Below are positions 388-5,994 of a stretch of DNA of 30,887 bases, in pieces. Location of the stretch: NCBI RefSeq assembly GCF_003334405.1, contig NZ_QOWM01000028.1, one strand, 5' to 3'. Source of the DNA: Escherichia coli (lineage in GTDB: Bacteria; Pseudomonadota; Gammaproteobacteria; Enterobacterales; Enterobacteriaceae). Position numbers and translations under genes: made by a program. The notes beneath the pieces are model-generated. The model worked only from the letters and a program-made list of their open reading frames with translations, had not been told where the DNA came from and ran no database searches. Within the stretch, counting starts at the first letter, position 1; each line of letters starts with the position of its first letter.

Positions 388-1977
388 ATGCAACAACGTC
401 GTCCAGTCCGCCGCGCTCTGCTCAGTGTTTCTGACAAAGCCGGTATCGTCGAATTCGCCCAGGCACTTTCCGCACGCGGTGTGGAGCTGCTGTCTACAGG
501 GGGCACTGCCCGTCTGTTAGCAGAAAAAGGTCTGCCGGTAACCGAAGTTTCCGATTACACCGGTTTCCCGGAGATGATGGATGGACGCGTGAAGACCCTG
601 CATCCGAAAGTACATGGTGGCATTCTGGGCCGTCGCGGCCAGGACGATGCCATTATGGAAGAACATCAGATCCAGCCTATCGATATGGTGGTTGTTAACC
701 TGTATCCGTTCGCCCAGACCGTGGCCCGTGAAGGTTGCTCGCTGGAAGATGCGGTTGAGAACATCGATATCGGCGGCCCAACGATGGTGCGCTCCGCCGC
801 CAAGAACCATAAAGATGTCGCAATCGTGGTGAAGAGCAGCGACTATGACGCCATTATTAAAGAGATGGATGACAACGAAGGATCGCTGACGCTTGCAACC
901 CGTTTCGACCTCGCCATCAAAGCCTTCGAACACACTGCCGCCTACGACAGCATGATTGCCAACTACTTCGGCAGCATGGTTCCGGCTTACCACGGTGAAA
1001 GCAAAGAAGCCGCCGGTCGCTTCCCACGCACGCTGAACCTGAACTTCATTAAGAAGCTGGATATGCGTTACGGCGAGAACAGCCACCAGCAGGCTGCCTT
1101 CTATATAGAAGAGAATGTGAAAGAAGCCTCCGTTGCTACCGCAACCCAGGTTCAGGGTAAAGCCCTCTCTTATAACAACATCGCCGATACCGATGCGGCG
1201 CTGGAGTGCGTGAAAGAGTTCGCCGAGCCGGCATGTGTGATTGTGAAGCACGCCAACCCTTGCGGCGTGGCTATCGGCAATTCCATTCTTGATGCTTACG
1301 ATCGCGCGTACAAAACCGACCCAACCTCCGCATTCGGCGGCATCATTGCCTTTAACCGCGAGCTGGATGCGGAAACCGCACAGGCCATCATTTCTCGTCA
1401 GTTTGTCGAAGTGATTATTGCGCCGTCCGCCAGCGAAGAAGCCCTGAAAATCACCGCCGCCAAACAGAACGTACGCGTTCTGACCTGCGGTCAGTGGGGC
1501 GAGCGTGTTCCGGGCCTCGATTTCAAACGCGTGAACGGCGGTCTGCTGGTTCAGGATCGTGACCTGGGGATGGTCGGTGCGGAAGAACTGCGCGTGGTGA
1601 CCAAACGTCAGCCGAGCGAACAGGAACTGCGTGATGCGCTGTTCTGCTGGAAGGTGGCGAAGTTTGTGAAATCCAACGCTATCGTCTATGCCAAAAACAA
1701 TATGACTATCGGCATTGGCGCGGGCCAGATGAGCCGCGTGTACTCCGCAAAAATCGCCGGTATTAAAGCGGCCGATGAAGGCCTGGAAGTGAAAGGTTCC
1801 TCGATGGCTTCTGACGCGTTCTTCCCGTTCCGCGACGGTATTGATGCCGCCGCCGCTGCGGGCGTGACCTGCGTAATCCAGCCTGGCGGTTCTATCCGTG
1901 ATGACGAAGTGATTGCCGCCGCCGACGAGCACGGTATTGCGATGCTCTTCACCGACATGCGCCACTTCCGCCATTAA
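388..1977 (+). CDS. purH: Bifunctional AICAR transformylase / IMP cyclohydrolase
   Basis: 529-aa ORF starting [27 protein letters not shown], with MGS-like and AICARFT domains recognisable. Length equals E. coli PurH. purD follows 11 bp downstream. Confidence 0.97.
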
Positions 1978-1988
1978 TGGAGCAATAG

Positions 1989-3278
1989 ATGAAAGTATTA
2001 GTGATTGGTAACGGCGGGCGCGAGCACGCGCTGGCCTGGAAAGCGGCCCAGTCGCCGCTGGTTGAGACTGTTTTTGTTGCTCCGGGTAATGCAGGCACTG
2101 CACTGGAACCCGCGCTGCAAAACGTTGCTATTGGCGTGACCGATATCCCGGCGCTGTTGGATTTCGCACAAAACGAAAAGATTGATCTGACCATCGTCGG
2201 CCCGGAAGCGCCGCTGGTGAAAGGCGTGGTCGATACCTTCCGCGCCGCCGGGCTGAAAATCTTCGGCCCAACCGCAGGTGCGGCCCAACTGGAAGGCTCA
2301 AAAGCGTTTACCAAAGATTTCCTGGCCCGCCATAAGATCCCTACGGCGGAATACCAGAACTTCACCGAGGTAGAACCTGCGCTGGCGTATCTGCGTGAGA
2401 AAGGCGCGCCAATCGTCATTAAAGCGGACGGTCTGGCTGCCGGGAAAGGCGTTATCGTGGCGATGACGCTGGAAGAAGCGGAAGCGGCTGTTCACGATAT
2501 GCTGGCGGGCAACGCTTTTGGCAACGCGGGTCATCGCATCGTTATCGAAGAGTTCCTCGATGGCGAAGAAGCGAGCTTTATCGTGATGGTGGACGGCGAG
2601 CATGTGCTGCCGATGGCTACCAGCCAGGATCACAAACGCGTAGGCGATAAAGATACCGGACCAAACACCGGCGGGATGGGCGCTTACTCCCCCGCGCCGG
2701 TAGTAACCGATGACGTTCATCAGCGCACCATGAAACGTATTATCTGGCCAACCGTGAAAGGCATGGCGGCGGAAGGCAACACCTACACCGGTTTTCTCTA
2801 CGCGGGCCTGATGATCGACAAACAGGGCAATCCGAAGGTTATTGAATTTAACTGCCGCTTTGGCGATCCGGAAACCCAGCCGATTATGCTGCGCATGAAG
2901 TCCGATCTGGTTGAGCTCTGCCTGGCGGCCTGTGAAAGCAAACTGGACGAGAAAACGTCCGAGTGGGATGAACGCGCTTCTCTCGGCGTGGTGATGGCTG
3001 CGGGTGGATATCCGGGTGATTACCGCACCGGTGACGTGATCCACGGCCTGCCGCTGGAAGAAGTGGCAGGCGGCAAAGTGTTCCACGCGGGCACAAAACT
3101 GGCGGATGACGAGCAGGTAGTGACCAACGGCGGGCGCGTACTGTGCGTCACCGCGCTGGGTCATACCGTGGCAGAAGCGCAGAAACGCGCCTATGCCTTA
3201 ATGACCGATATCCACTGGGACGACTGCTTCTGCCGGAAAGATATCGGCTGGCGCGCTATCGAACGCGAGCAGAACTAA
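1989..3278 (+). CDS. purD: Phosphoribosylamine-glycine ligase (GAR synthetase)
   Basis: 429-aa ORF starting MKVLVIGNGGREHALAWKAAQSPL, an ATP-grasp protein. Length equals E. coli PurD. Operonic with purH. Confidence 0.97.
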   Translation: MKVLVIGNGGREHALAWKAAQSPLVETVFVAPGNAGTALEPALQNVAIGVTDIPALLDFAQNEKIDLTIVGPEAPLVKGVVDTFRAAGLKIFGPTAGAAQLEGSKAFTKDFLARHKIPTAEYQNFTEVEPALAYLREKGAPIVIKADGLAAGKGVIVAMTLEEAEAAVHDMLAGNAFGNAGHRIVIEEFLDGEEASFIVMVDGEHVLPMATSQDHKRVGDKDTGPNTGGMGAYSPAPVVTDDVHQRTMKRIIWPTVKGMAAEGNTYTGFLYAGLMIDKQGNPKVIEFNCRFGDPETQPIMLRMKSDLVELCLAACESKLDEKTSEWDERASLGVVMAAGGYPGDYRTGDVIHGLPLEEVAGGKVFHAGTKLADDEQVVTNGGRVLCVTALGHTVAEAQKRAYALMTDIHWDDCFCRKDIGWRAIEREQN

Positions 3279-4600
3279 CGCGACAGTTTTGCCAATAGCG
3301 TTTTGCGCGTGATCCCTAACTGACGGGCGGCTTCGGTTTTGTTGCCGCCCGTTTTCTCCAGCGCCGCCAGAATCACCTCTTTTTCCACTTCCACCAACGG
3401 CTGAATATCCTGACTTTGTCCCAGCGGGATCGGCGTACTGGCAATCGCCAGCGGCAGCTCGCGTTCGGAAATATATTCCCCGGTCAGCAGCACCACTGCC
3501 CGTTCCACCGCGTTTTCCAGCTCACGAATATTTCCCGGCCAGTCGTAATGAATCAACAGATCCATCGCCTGGGGCGTAAAACCTTTTACCGCCTTGCGAT
3601 TACGCTCGGCAAAGCGCTGCAGAAAATGGCCAGCCAGCAGAGGGATATCTTCCCGCCGTTGCCGCAGCGATGGTACTTCAATCGCCACCACATTCAGGCG
3701 ATAGTAGAGATCCTGGCGAAAACGCCCGGCATTCACCTCTGCGGCAAGATCGCGATGGGTCGCCGCAATCAGCCGGACATCAACCGAGATAATCTGGTTG
3801 CTACCGACACGCTGAACTTCGCGCTCCTGAATCGCACGCAGCAGACGCACCTGCATCATCGGCGAGATATCGCCAATTTCATCGAGAAACAGCGTGCCGC
3901 CGTCCGCCTCAACAAAGCGCCCTTCCCGGCGTTTATCGGCTCCAGTAAACGCCCCTTTTTCGTGACCGAACAATTCAGATTCCAGCAAGGATTCGTTGAG
4001 TGCCGCACAGTTGAGCGTTACCAGCGGTTTTTCGCTACGTGCGCTACTGGCGTGAATCGCCCTGGCGACCAGCTCTTTACCGGTGCCGGAATCGCCGTGG
4101 ATCAGTACCGTGGCTTCCGATGGCGCGACGAGGGCGATTTCACTGAGCAGGTGTTGCATCGCCGGGCTTTTACCGACCATACCGAACTGGCTGGCAGTCA
4201 CCGCAGGTGTTTCAGCATCAATACTGTGCGTATGCGCGAGCGCTTTTTCCAGCGTCGCCTGTAGGTTATCGAAATCCAGCGGCTTGATGAGATAATCCAG
4301 CGCCCCAGTTTTCAGTGCCTCTACCGCCGTCTCGACGCTGGAGTACGCAGTCATAATCAGCACCGGAATTGCCGGGTTTAACGCTTTGATCTCTTTCAGC
4401 GTGGCGATGCCGTCCATCTCCGCCATTCGCACATCGCAAAGCACAAGATCAAAAACCTGTTCCCGCACCTGCTCCAACGCCTGTCGCCCGCTGTTCGCCA
4501 GCGCGACGTTATAGCCCCAGCCGCGCAGTAAAGCCTGCAAAATAGTGCAGTGGCTAATGTCATCATCCACCACCAGAATATCGATATTATCGTGCGTCAT
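3275..4600 (-). CDS. zraR: Sigma54-dependent two-component response regulator (NtrC family)
   Basis: 441-aa ORF with a receiver domain ([13 protein letters not shown]...), an AAA+ sigma54-activator core ([14 protein letters not shown]) and a C-terminal HTH. ATGA overlap with upstream zraS. Confidence 0.95.
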
Positions 4601-5994
4601 CCTTGTGGGTCCTTACGCGTAATATTGACCGGAAGCCAGAGGGTGAACGTTGAGCCTTTTCCCTCCTGGCTTGCGACCTGAATTGTACCACCGTGTTGTT
4701 CAACAATATTATGCACGACCGCCAGCCCCAATCCGGTGCCTTCGGCTTTAGTGGTGAAGTACGGAGTGAAGATGGCATCAAGCTGATCTGCCGCAATTCC
4801 CTTACCGCTGTCGGTAACGCTGATTTTCACGCCCGCGCCGCTTTCGCTGGCCGTCACGCTAATCACGCCATGCTGACCAATCGCCTGAATAGCATTGAGA
4901 TAGAGATTCAACAGGACCTGAGTCAGCCTGTCCGGGTCGGCCTGAATTTCCGGTAATGTGTCGTTGGCGGTAAAGCGTAACTGGATCTCCCGGCTGTTTG
5001 CATCCTGACTTACCAGCTGTAATGAGTGGTTAATCAGCGTGTTGAGATCCACCGCCTGCAAAGCCAGATGCGTTGGCTTAACCAGTTCCAGCAACTCGCT
5101 TACCACGCGGTTTAAACGGTCGGCCTCTTTCGCCATCACCTGCGCCAGTTGATGCGCTTCTCCCCCTGCAGGCGCGCGCTCGGCAAAGTATTTCGCCAGT
5201 CCTTTAATCGAGGAAAGTGGGTTACGGATTTCGTGGGCAACGCCTGCCGCAAGATGCCCCAGCGCCACCAGCTTCTCTTTGCGCTTCATTTCATCTTGTA
5301 GAAGCTGGCGCGAGCGCAGATAGCGGCGATACCAGAAGAATGACAATACGCTTGCCAGCAAGACCGTCGCCAGGGCGAAGAGGATAATCAGGGTATTGCG
5401 CTTTTCCCCACTCTGGGTTGCAACCAGATCACTGGCATCAACGGCGATAAAAATAGCCTGTTGTGCATCTACTTGTGGCACAGCTTTGCCGTTACAGCGC
5501 GGCATATTGTGCATTCCATGCCGCCAGGGCGCTGACATTGGCTGGAACAAACGATAGACCTCAAGTGCAGGCGTAGTTTCCGTTTTCCCAAGCAGCCGCC
5601 AGCGGGAGTTTTCCTCTGGCTTTAATTTCTGCATTTCATCCGGCGAATAGAGCGCACGCCCGACCTTATCGGGGTCGCTATGAAGAATAATGATGCCCTG
5701 CGCATCGGTGACTGCGAACCACAACACTCCCGGCTGTCCCGCCATCTCTTCCAGAAGCGCCTGTTGCTGTACATGGTGCATTCGCATCCCCATCCCTACG
5801 CGGCTTCCCGACTCCAGAGCGCGGATAAGCACATTACCTTTTTCCAGTAATGCCTGGCGGTCTGCCTCGCTTGCCCGCCCATAATCACGAATCACAGTTA
5901 CCGCAAACAATCCCACCAGCCCAACAATGACCACGGGGAGGATCGCGCTTAACCATTTAGCTAAGGAGTCTTTAGAACGTTGCATAAAACGCAT
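4597..5994 (-). CDS. zraS: Sensor histidine kinase of the zinc/envelope-stress two-component system
   Basis: 465-aa ORF with an N-terminal transmembrane segment, periplasmic domain, second TM, an H-box (HEIRNPL) and an HATPase_c region (GTGLGLAVV). The 3' end overlaps the zraR start by 4 nt. Confidence 0.95.
   Translation of the reverse strand: MRFMQRSKDSLAKWLSAILPVVIVGLVGLFAVTVIRDYGRASEADRQALLEKGNVLIRALESGSRVGMGMRMHHVQQQALLEEMAGQPGVLWFAVTDAQGIIILHSDPDKVGRALYSPDEMQKLKPEENSRWRLLGKTETTPALEVYRLFQPMSAPWRHGMHNMPRCNGKAVPQVDAQQAIFIAVDASDLVATQSGEKRNTLIILFALATVLLASVLSFFWYRRYLRSRQLLQDEMKRKEKLVALGHLAAGVAHEIRNPLSSIKGLAKYFAERAPAGGEAHQLAQVMAKEADRLNRVVSELLELVKPTHLALQAVDLNTLINHSLQLVSQDANSREIQLRFTANDTLPEIQADPDRLTQVLLNLYLNAIQAIGQHGVISVTASESGAGVKISVTDSGKGIAADQLDAIFTPYFTTKAEGTGLGLAVVHNIVEQHGGTIQVASQEGKGSTFTLWLPVNITRKDPQG

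What the first reader, a model, noticed from the sequence alone, without database searches (positions are those of the whole stretch)
3270..3285. Convergent purD and zraR overlap at their stop codons, leaving no room for a terminator
The purD stop (TAA, 3276..3278) and the zraR stop (complement of 3275..3277) overlap by 2 nt. Transcription from each unit must therefore terminate inside the other gene or collide, which implies obligatory antisense overlap between a purine biosynthesis operon and an envelope-stress regulator.
Basis: seen in the sequence. Interest (0 to 1): 0.25.

Follow-up and report, generated by a model that had tools for sequence, protein, structure and literature searches.

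The report
purD–zraR overlap hides a coding-embedded terminator
The E. coli genes purD and zraR do end on top of each other, an annotated arrangement already listed as a transcript overlap: purHD stops at a conserved hairpin terminator written into the last codons of zraR, and zraSR is stopped by Rho inside purD.

Summary
purD (1989..3278, +) ends TAA at 3276-3278 and zraR (3275..4600, -) ends TAG at complement 3275-3277. The stops share 2 nt and the CDSs share 4 nt, exactly as in RefSeq MG1655.

- **purHD terminator.** A 10-bp GC-rich hairpin (3322-3353, about -21 kcal/mol) plus a U-tract (3352-3357) lies on the purD-sense strand, inside zraR codons 415-426. A published 3'-end map places the purD "primary" terminus at MG1655 4204560, which is window 3360, 7-9 nt past the stem.
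- **zraSR termination.** A published bicyclomycin experiment places a Rho termination region antisense to purD at window ~3009, 266 nt past the zraR stop.
- **Prior listing.** The pair is already in the E. coli "excludome".

New here:
- All 82 enterobacterial junctions recovered (Escherichia, Citrobacter, Klebsiella, Kluyvera, Phytobacter) keep the overlap, at 4 or 11 nt.
- The six synonymous stem sites of the hairpin are almost frozen: 1 substitution step in total, against a mean of 4.2 per site in the rest of zraR.

Verdict: real, ordinary, essentially already known. No regulatory coupling between purines and ZraSR has been shown.

The parts
388..1977 (+). purH CDS (first gene of purHD)
   Evidence: ORF list; RefSeq annotation of the homologous locus
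1989..3278 (+). purD CDS, stop TAA 3276-3278
3275..4600 (-). zraR CDS (sigma-54 response regulator), stop TAG = complement of 3275-3277
3275..3278 (.). 4-nt CDS overlap CTAA; the stop codons share 3276-3277
   Evidence: Conserved as 4 nt in 64 and 11 nt in 18 of 82 enterobacterial junctions
3322..3353 (+). purHD intrinsic-terminator hairpin: arms 3322-3331 and 3344-3353 (GC core CGGGCGGC/GCCGCCCG), 12-nt loop; encoded by zraR codons T417 G418 G419 ... A424 A425 R426
   Evidence: RNA fold: 111-nt context -43.1 kcal/mol, z = -2.9; hairpin alone -19 to -22 kcal/mol in nearly all variants, -15.2 in one. Stem fourfold sites show 0,0,0,0,0,1 Fitch steps against a gene mean of 4.18
3352..3357 (+). 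U-tract TTTTCT (TTTTTT in most other genera), from zraR codons E415 K416
3352..3361 (+). Experimentally mapped purD 'primary' RNA 3' terminus (MG1655 minus strand 4204559-4204568, peak 4204560 = window 3360)
   Evidence: TRS Supplementary Data 2 and 4, PMC10687069; coordinate mapping w = 4207920 - m
3279..3360 (+). purD 3' UTR (82-83 nt), fully antisense to zraR codons 414-441
2950..3274 (-). Untranslated zraSR read-through RNA antisense to purD. Published Rho termination region peaks at window ~3009 (MG1655 + strand 4204911). C exceeds G in the windows starting 100-325 nt past the zraR stop
   Evidence: PMC7815308 Supplementary file 2: reads upstream/downstream 74/17 untreated and 172/169 with bicyclomycin, Rho score 4.28, p 5.7e-8. 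C/G counts
4597..5994 (-). zraS CDS, upstream gene of zraSR (4-nt co-directional overlap with zraR)

Best explanation
This is an ordinary, ancient tail-to-tail gene junction in Enterobacteriaceae, and the termination signals of both operons sit inside the neighbour's coding sequence. (1) purHD RNA polymerase runs 44 nt past the purD stop. It then transcribes a 10-bp GC-rich hairpin followed by UUUUCU and terminates intrinsically about 82 nt past the stop. The hairpin is spelled by the zraR codons ACG GGC GGC ... GCC GCC CGT (T-G-G...A-A-R of the Fis-type helix-turn-helix), and the U-tract by GAG/GAA AAA (E-K). Selection for termination has therefore frozen those synonymous positions. (2) zraSR has no intrinsic terminator. 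Once ribosomes leave at the zraR stop, the untranslated, mildly C-rich RNA antisense to purD is terminated by Rho some 250-350 nt downstream. (3) The two transcripts can therefore overlap by up to about 350 nt (window ~3009-3360). This is best read as a tolerated by-product of genome compaction rather than a demonstrated regulatory device. Shown: the overlap, the hairpin, its conservation, the purD 3' end and the bicyclomycin-sensitive region. Inferred: that the 3' end is made by termination rather than trimming, that the Rho-terminated RNA starts at the zraSR promoter, and that the overlap has little regulatory effect.
For: Overlap and annotation. Hairpin plus U-tract on the purD-sense strand: context fold z = -2.9; hairpin -19 to -22 kcal/mol in nearly all of the 19 sequence variants. 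Mapped purD primary 3' terminus at 4204560 = window 3360, 7-9 nt after the stem. Conservation: in 25 lineage representatives the codons ACG, GGC, GGC, GCC, GCC are 25/25 and CGT is 24/25, while the loop Thr codon uses all four bases. On a 23-lineage tree (median 21% nt divergence) the six stem fourfold sites total 1 Fitch step, against a mean of 4.18 per site over 148 sites. This is the unique gene-wide minimum, reached in 0.125% of shuffles. In a matched control, 49 Gly/Ala codons outside the stem average 4.27 steps and only 3 have zero steps, whereas all four stem Gly/Ala codons have zero. Non-enteric paralogues with the same TGGNKSEAAR peptide but different C-terminal tails (none ends like ZraR) use other codons and form only 5-6 Watson-Crick pairs. 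Most stem variants (A3323G in several lineages, C3350T in L086) keep G-U pairs only on the purD-sense RNA. zraSR side: Rho score 4.28 at 4204911 (+), antisense to purD; C exceeds G in the windows starting 100-325 nt past the stop; no significant structure just past the zraR stop (z = -0.84). Transcript overlap seen in at least 50% of 58 RNA-seq samples.
Against: The Term-seq tables of PMC7815308 list no 3' end for purD or zraR. The TERMITe and SMRT-Cappable-seq supplements do not mention either gene. The 3' end therefore rests on one data resource. The E. coli U-tract is interrupted (UUUUCU) and the loop is long (12 nt); the consensus scanner missed the site because it accepts only loops of 3-8 nt. 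One E. coli-like contig (L159) carries a stem change that breaks a pair on the purD-sense RNA. The bicyclomycin signal has roughly 800-nt resolution and low read counts, and does not show where the RNA starts. C enrichment is modest.
Confidence: 0.8

Rival explanations
1. Functional excludon. The conserved overlap exists so that purHD and zraSR repress each other, through head-on polymerase collision and/or RNase III cleavage of the sense/antisense duplex, coupling purine supply to the zinc/envelope-stress response.
For: zraR-purD is listed among 165 convergent E. coli excludons. The overlap persists in all 82 junctions across at least five genera. Converging polymerases are reported to collide and to contribute to termination at convergent gene pairs (bioRxiv 10.1101/2022.10.23.513370).
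Against: No expression or phenotype data link the two operons in any paper searched or read here. The purHD antisense covers only ~86 nt of zraR, and the zraSR antisense is removed by Rho. Conservation of the overlap is explained more simply: both CDS ends and the embedded terminator are constrained, leaving nothing free to insert or delete. The purD end slides between lineages (EQN*, EQR*, EQNS*, EKANG*), which suggests the overlap itself is not the selected feature.
Confidence: 0.1
2. The hairpin is conserved for zraR's own sake, as an mRNA stability or translation-pausing element on the zraR-sense RNA or through codon preference. The purD 3' end there is only an exonuclease stop on a longer, Rho-terminated purHD transcript.
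For: The GC stem forms equally well on either strand. The TRS method maps stable 3' ends and cannot separate termination from trimming. One variant (L159) keeps pairing only on the zraR-sense RNA.
Against: The T-run follows the stem only on the purD-sense strand. The mapped end lies 7-9 nt beyond the stem, in or just after the U-tract, as expected for intrinsic termination rather than at the stem base. No Rho region on that strand is listed near zraR. On the zraR-sense RNA the hairpin lies inside a translated ORF, so translating ribosomes should unwind it (inference). Codon preference does not explain it: C-ending fourfold sites elsewhere in zraR average 4.6 steps, and paralogues with the same peptide use other codons.
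Confidence: 0.08
3. Annotation artefact: one of the two stops is not the real end of the protein, so the overlap is only apparent.
For: 3'-end extensions account for many annotated long convergent overlaps (PMC2478687).
Against: Stop codons are unambiguous. The ZraR C-terminus ...LLAKLSR* and the PurD C-terminus ...GWRAIEREQ.. are conserved across genera, each ending at an in-frame stop. The overlap is 4 nt, far below the 60-bp range where artefacts dominate.
Confidence: 0.01

Closest known systems
Rho-independent (intrinsic) terminator
   Same: GC-rich stem, U-tract directly 3' of the stem, RNA 3' end 7-9 nt after the stem, located in untranslated RNA 44 nt after the stop codon of the last gene of the operon.
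   Different: It lies entirely within the coding sequence of the convergent gene zraR, so its stem and U-tract are also codons. The loop is long (12 nt) and the E. coli U-tract is interrupted (UUUUCU).
Rho-dependent termination of read-through or antisense RNA in E. coli (bicyclomycin-sensitive regions; PMC7815308)
   Same: zraR-sense RNA becomes untranslated after the stop, is mildly C-rich and G-poor, and shows 4.3-fold bicyclomycin-dependent read-through about 266 nt downstream, antisense to purD. PMC7815308 reports antisense sites as its largest class of Rho termination region.
   Different: Nothing unusual. The exact release sites and the rut site are not mapped.
Excludon / convergent transcript overlap (ExcludonFinder, PMC12288877)
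   Same: Convergent neighbours whose transcripts overlap; the pair is listed by name in that paper's Table 1.
   Different: From my own knowledge, classical Listeria excludons involve long antisense RNAs spanning whole neighbouring genes, with shown reciprocal expression. Here the overlap is at most ~350 nt and no reciprocity has been shown.
Bidirectional terminators at convergent gene pairs (the SEnd-seq work behind bioRxiv 10.1101/2022.10.23.513370; not readable here)
   Same: Convergent pair with a single strong stem-loop between or at the gene ends; converging polymerases may collide there.
   Different: From my own knowledge, such elements have an A-tract 5' and a U-tract 3' of the stem. 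Here the sequence 5' of the stem is GATCCCTAACTG, so the zraR-sense hairpin has no U-tract, and on that strand it lies in a translated ORF. zraSR uses Rho instead.
Short tail-to-tail overlapping gene pairs in prokaryotes
   Same: Convergent overlap of a few nucleotides sharing stop-codon bases (CTAA reads as TAA on one strand and TAG on the other). Convergent overlaps were about 7% of well-characterised overlaps in 338 genomes (PMC2478687).
   Different: None; it is a typical member.

Membership tests
Intrinsic (Rho-independent) terminator, for purHD | Stable GC-rich stem-loop in the nascent RNA | tested here: met
   10-bp stem 3322-3331/3344-3353, -21.4 kcal/mol in the window
Intrinsic (Rho-independent) terminator, for purHD | U-rich tract immediately 3' of the stem | tested here: met
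   TTTTCT at 3352-3357 in E. coli; TTTTTT in Citrobacter, Klebsiella, Kluyvera and Phytobacter. Absent on the opposite strand
Intrinsic (Rho-independent) terminator, for purHD | RNA 3' end about 7-9 nt downstream of the stem | tested here: met
   Published TRS terminus at 4204559-4204568, peak 4204560 = window 3360
Intrinsic (Rho-independent) terminator, for purHD | Termination by RNA polymerase alone, independent of Rho | not testable with these tools
   Needs an in vitro transcription assay. Indirect support: no Rho region is listed on that strand near zraR
Rho-dependent terminator, for zraSR | Read-through increases when Rho is inhibited by bicyclomycin | tested here: met
   Published data: 74/17 reads upstream/downstream untreated, 172/169 with bicyclomycin, Rho score 4.28, p 5.7e-8 at 4204911 (+) = window 3009
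Rho-dependent terminator, for zraSR | Untranslated, C-rich, G-poor RNA (rut) upstream of the release sites | tested here: inconclusive
   RNA is untranslated after 3275. C exceeds G (17-21 versus 11-15 per 50 nt) in the windows starting 100-325 nt downstream; the enrichment is modest
Excludon | Overlapping transcripts of oppositely oriented neighbours | tested here: met
   Listed in PMC12288877 Table 1; the 3'-end and Rho data imply overlap of about 3009-3360
Excludon | Reciprocal (mutually exclusive) expression caused by the overlap | not testable with these tools
   No expression data for the pair in any paper searched or read here
Bidirectional intrinsic terminator | One hairpin flanked by an A-tract 5' and a U-tract 3', so that it terminates both strands | tested here: not met
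   The sequence 5' of the stem is GATCCCTAACTG (3310-3321), not A-rich. The zraR-sense hairpin is followed by CAGUUAGGGAUC
Tail-to-tail overlapping gene pair | Two genuine convergent CDSs whose 3' ends share nucleotides | tested here: met

The most novel reading that the evidence does not exclude
The terminator embedded in zraR, kept across all enterobacterial genera sampled here, is more than a space-saving device. By fixing an ~85-nt sense/antisense duplex and a head-on polymerase conflict zone at the 3' end of zraR, purine-starvation-induced purHD transcription would lower ZraR synthesis. Conversely, Zn-induced zraSR transcription would perturb purHD termination or purD mRNA. This would be a conserved cross-talk between nucleotide biosynthesis and the ZraPSR envelope-stress system.
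Probability: 0.08. Interest if true: 0.45.

Novelty: already known. Interest (0 to 1): 0.18.

Why it matters
It matters little for new biology. The overlap is annotated in every E. coli genome, the transcript overlap has been catalogued, and both 3'-end signals already sit in published supplementary tables.

Two modest points are worth keeping.
- **Annotation and engineering.** Recoding or deleting the 3' end of zraR would remove the purHD terminator. A purD stop change from TAA to TGA removes the zraR stop.
- **Molecular evolution.** This is a clean example of a transcription terminator imposing strong purifying selection on synonymous sites of a convergent gene. Six fourfold sites show one change in total across 23 enterobacterial lineages.

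Tried and rejected
1. The consensus terminator scan did not report the hairpin, because it accepts only loops of 3-8 nt. Its minus-strand hit at 2960..2945 looked like a possible zraSR terminator, but neither its stem nor its T-run is conserved outside some E. coli, so I rejected it.

2. The genome-contig scan with ZraR was swamped by generic sigma-54 activator motifs.

3. The protein search with ZraR returned only Escherichia variants in its top 120. It was useful only for the length and stop-loss variants.

4. Supplement searches found nothing for purD or zraR in TERMITe and SMRT-Cappable-seq. No supplements are held for PMC9023263, PMC6061677 or PMC11092163. The id I tried for the SEnd-seq paper (PMC6814526) is not held.

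5. Rfam at E up to 1 found no family in 2600-3800 on either strand.

6. The purHD/terminator literature search gave nothing relevant.

7. A synonymous-constraint scan of purD found no cluster comparable to the zraR hairpin. The lowest 6-site sum was 7, at codons 290-302.

8. Tandem Repeats Finder found nothing in zraR.

Full report
**1. Observation**

The window is E. coli chromosome. The segment 2700-3900 is found at 95% identity or more in nearly all of the 5418 (of 5426) complete genomes that hold it.

The purD ORF (1989..3278, +) ends ...GAG CAG AAC TAA, with TAA at 3276-3278. The zraR ORF (3275..4600, -) ends ...AGC CGT TAG, with TAG the complement of 3275-3277. The two stop codons share 3276-3277, and the CDS coordinates share four bases (CTAA).

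RefSeq annotates the same arrangement in MG1655: zraR 4203320-4204645 (+) and purD 4204642-4205931 (-). This gives the coordinate mapping window = 4207920 - MG1655.

**2. What is there: the purHD side**

Folding the purD-sense strand just past the stop gives a strong hairpin (111-nt context -43.1 kcal/mol, z = -2.9).
- The arms are 3322-3331 and 3344-3353, with GC core CGGGCGGC/GCCGCCCG and a 12-nt loop. The hairpin alone is -21.4 kcal/mol.
- It is followed directly by TTTTCT (3352-3357).
- The consensus scanner missed it because it only accepts loops of 3-8 nt.

The element lies 44 nt downstream of the purD stop, so on the purHD RNA it is untranslated. On the other strand it is zraR codons E415 K416 T417 G418 G419 N K T E A424 A425 R426, part of the Fis-type helix-turn-helix.

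A published 3'-end resource lists an MG1655 minus-strand terminus at 4204559-4204568, with its peak at 4204560. It is classed as the "Primary" terminus of purD, with an 83-nt 3' UTR (TRS, Nat Commun 2023, PMC10687069, Supplementary Data 2 and 4). That peak is window 3360, which is 7-9 nt after the stem and at the end of the U-tract. This is the signature position of intrinsic termination. The intergenic space is indeed zero, but a terminator exists and is written in zraR codons.

**3. What is there: the zraSR side**

The zraR-sense RNA just past the zraR stop has no significant structure (z = -0.84).

Adams et al. (eLife 2021, PMC7815308, Supplementary file 2) list a Rho termination region at 4204911 (+), classed "antisense purD". 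Read counts in 800-nt windows upstream/downstream were 74/17 untreated and 172/169 with bicyclomycin, giving a Rho score of 4.28 and p = 5.7e-8. This is window ~3009, 266 nt past the zraR stop.

The zraR-sense RNA there is untranslated. It is moderately C-rich and G-poor in the windows starting 100-325 nt past the stop.

The scanner's weak minus-strand hairpin at 2960..2945 is not conserved outside some E. coli, and purD shows no synonymous-constraint cluster like the one in zraR. zraSR is therefore most likely terminated by Rho inside antisense purD. The maximal two-strand RNA overlap is about 3009-3360.

**4. Evolutionary evidence**

A fully codon-degenerate DNA pattern for the peptide [12 protein letters not shown] was scanned over metagenome contigs and gave 111 loci. 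Combined with the window and Citrobacter werkmanii L003, 82 loci have a ZraR-type C-terminus (...LLAK[L/I]SR*, one ...LLTKLLR*) and enough flank. All 82 have a convergent purD overlapping zraR, 64 by 4 nt and 18 by 11 nt.

Exact-sequence look-up of PurD proteins named the lineages:

| Overlap | Lineages |
|---|---|
| 11 nt | Klebsiella contigs whose PurD matches K. quasipneumoniae and multispecies Klebsiella entries; K. aerogenes |
| 4 nt | Escherichia, Citrobacter braakii, C. werkmanii, K. michiganensis and related Klebsiella, Kluyvera cryocrescens, Phytobacter/Metakosakonia |

The purD end slides between lineages (EQN*, EQR*, EQNS*, EQNR*, EQH*, EKANG*, EKTNG*), while zraR's CGT TAG is invariant.

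The hairpin is nearly invariant across 52 unique junction sequences, while neighbouring synonymous sites vary freely.
- **Codon counts.** In 25 lineage representatives, ACG, GGC, GGC, GCC and GCC are 25/25 and CGT is 24/25. The Thr codon in the loop uses ACC, ACT, ACG and ACA.
- **Parsimony test.** On a neighbour-joining tree of 23 lineages (median 21% and maximum 25% nucleotide divergence), 148 fourfold sites of zraR average 4.18 Fitch steps and only 13 have none. The six stem sites score 0,0,0,0,0,1 and the loop site scores 8.
- **Gene-wide rank.** The stem is the unique gene-wide minimum. The next-lowest window that does not overlap the hairpin sums to 10. Shuffling the sites reaches the observed value in 0.125% of trials.
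- **Matched control.** 49 conserved Gly/Ala codons elsewhere average 4.27 steps and 3 have zero, whereas all four stem Gly/Ala codons have zero.
- **No ascertainment bias.** The search pattern was N at every third position.
- **Paralogue control.** Non-enteric regulators with the same TGGNKSEAAR peptide but different C-terminal tails use other codons and form only 5-6 Watson-Crick pairs.
- **Strand evidence.** Most stem variants (A3323G in several lineages, C3350T in L086) keep a G-U pair only on the purD-sense RNA. One (L159) does the opposite.

Together with the mapped 3' end, this is good evidence that the structure is selected as the purHD terminator.

**5. Comparison with what is known**

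- **Gene overlap.** The junction is a typical short tail-to-tail overlap. Convergent overlaps were about 7% of well-characterised overlaps in 338 genomes (PMC2478687).
- **Excludon listing.** The pair is named among the 165 convergent "excludons" of MG1655, seen in at least 50% of 58 RNA-seq samples (PMC12288877).
- **Termination types.** The purHD element meets the sequence and 3'-end criteria of an intrinsic terminator. The zraSR side meets the bicyclomycin criterion of Rho termination.
- **Not bidirectional.** There is no A-tract 5' of the stem, and the hairpin lies in a translated ORF on the zraR strand.
- **Not an Rfam family**.
- **Polymerase collisions.** Collisions between converging polymerases are an established phenomenon at convergent pairs (bioRxiv 10.1101/2022.10.23.513370). 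Nothing here shows they matter at this locus.

**6. Verdict**

"No room for a terminator" is misleading, because a dedicated intrinsic terminator is embedded in zraR. The suggested regulatory coupling is untested and, I judge, unlikely (about 0.1).

The only new detail is the deep conservation of the overlap and the strong synonymous constraint that the embedded terminator imposes on zraR. Interest is low (0.18) and novelty is "already known".

Noticed in passing
L194 2790-2920 (equivalent to window 3275-3278): In one Logan contig the purD stop is TGA instead of TAA. This is silent for purD but turns the zraR stop TAG into CAG, so ZraR is extended to 469 aa and the CDS overlap grows to 88 nt. 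A second singleton (P0001, 456 aa) has TAG changed to a Tyr codon. These show that the shared stop bases constrain each other.
   Followed up: yes
window ~4454-4474 (-), zraR codons 43-49: E. coli ZraR occurs as 437-, 441- and 445-aa forms that differ by one in-frame 12-nt unit at the imperfect direct repeat GAGCAGGTGCGG/GAACAGGTT (EQVR-EQV). Other variants carry in-frame duplications of 7 or 18 aa, or a 7-aa deletion. Tandem Repeats Finder reports nothing there.
   Followed up: partly
window 2945-2960 (-): A terminator-like hairpin GGACGTTTTCTCGTCC plus AGTTTGCTTT lies on the zraR-sense strand inside purD, about 315 nt past the zraR stop and near the published Rho region. Neither the stem nor the T-run is conserved in other genera or in many E. 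coli.
   Followed up: yes
hit H1 (NZ_AP025180.1, strain JP538): An IS1A element interrupts zraR in this strain. The gene is annotated as two fragments: a helix-turn-helix protein and a sigma-54-interacting regulator.
   Followed up: no
window 4597-4600: zraS and zraR overlap co-directionally by 4 nt (4597..4600), as in the MG1655 annotation. This fits translational coupling within zraSR.
   Followed up: no
L090 (metagenome contig OQNO01002826.1), purD: The first ~100 residues of this PurD are much more divergent than the rest (81.5% identity overall, against ~90% for the other contigs with the 11-nt overlap). This may be recombination or an assembly chimera.
   Followed up: no
window 3316-3365, across 5426 E. 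coli genomes: The 50-nt hairpin region is found by megablast in 4865 genomes: 2035 at 99% identity or more and 2830 at 95-99% (1-2 differences). The other 561 genomes were not retrieved with this short query. The metagenome variants differ mostly in the loop (3334) and just 3' of the terminator (3362).
   Followed up: partly
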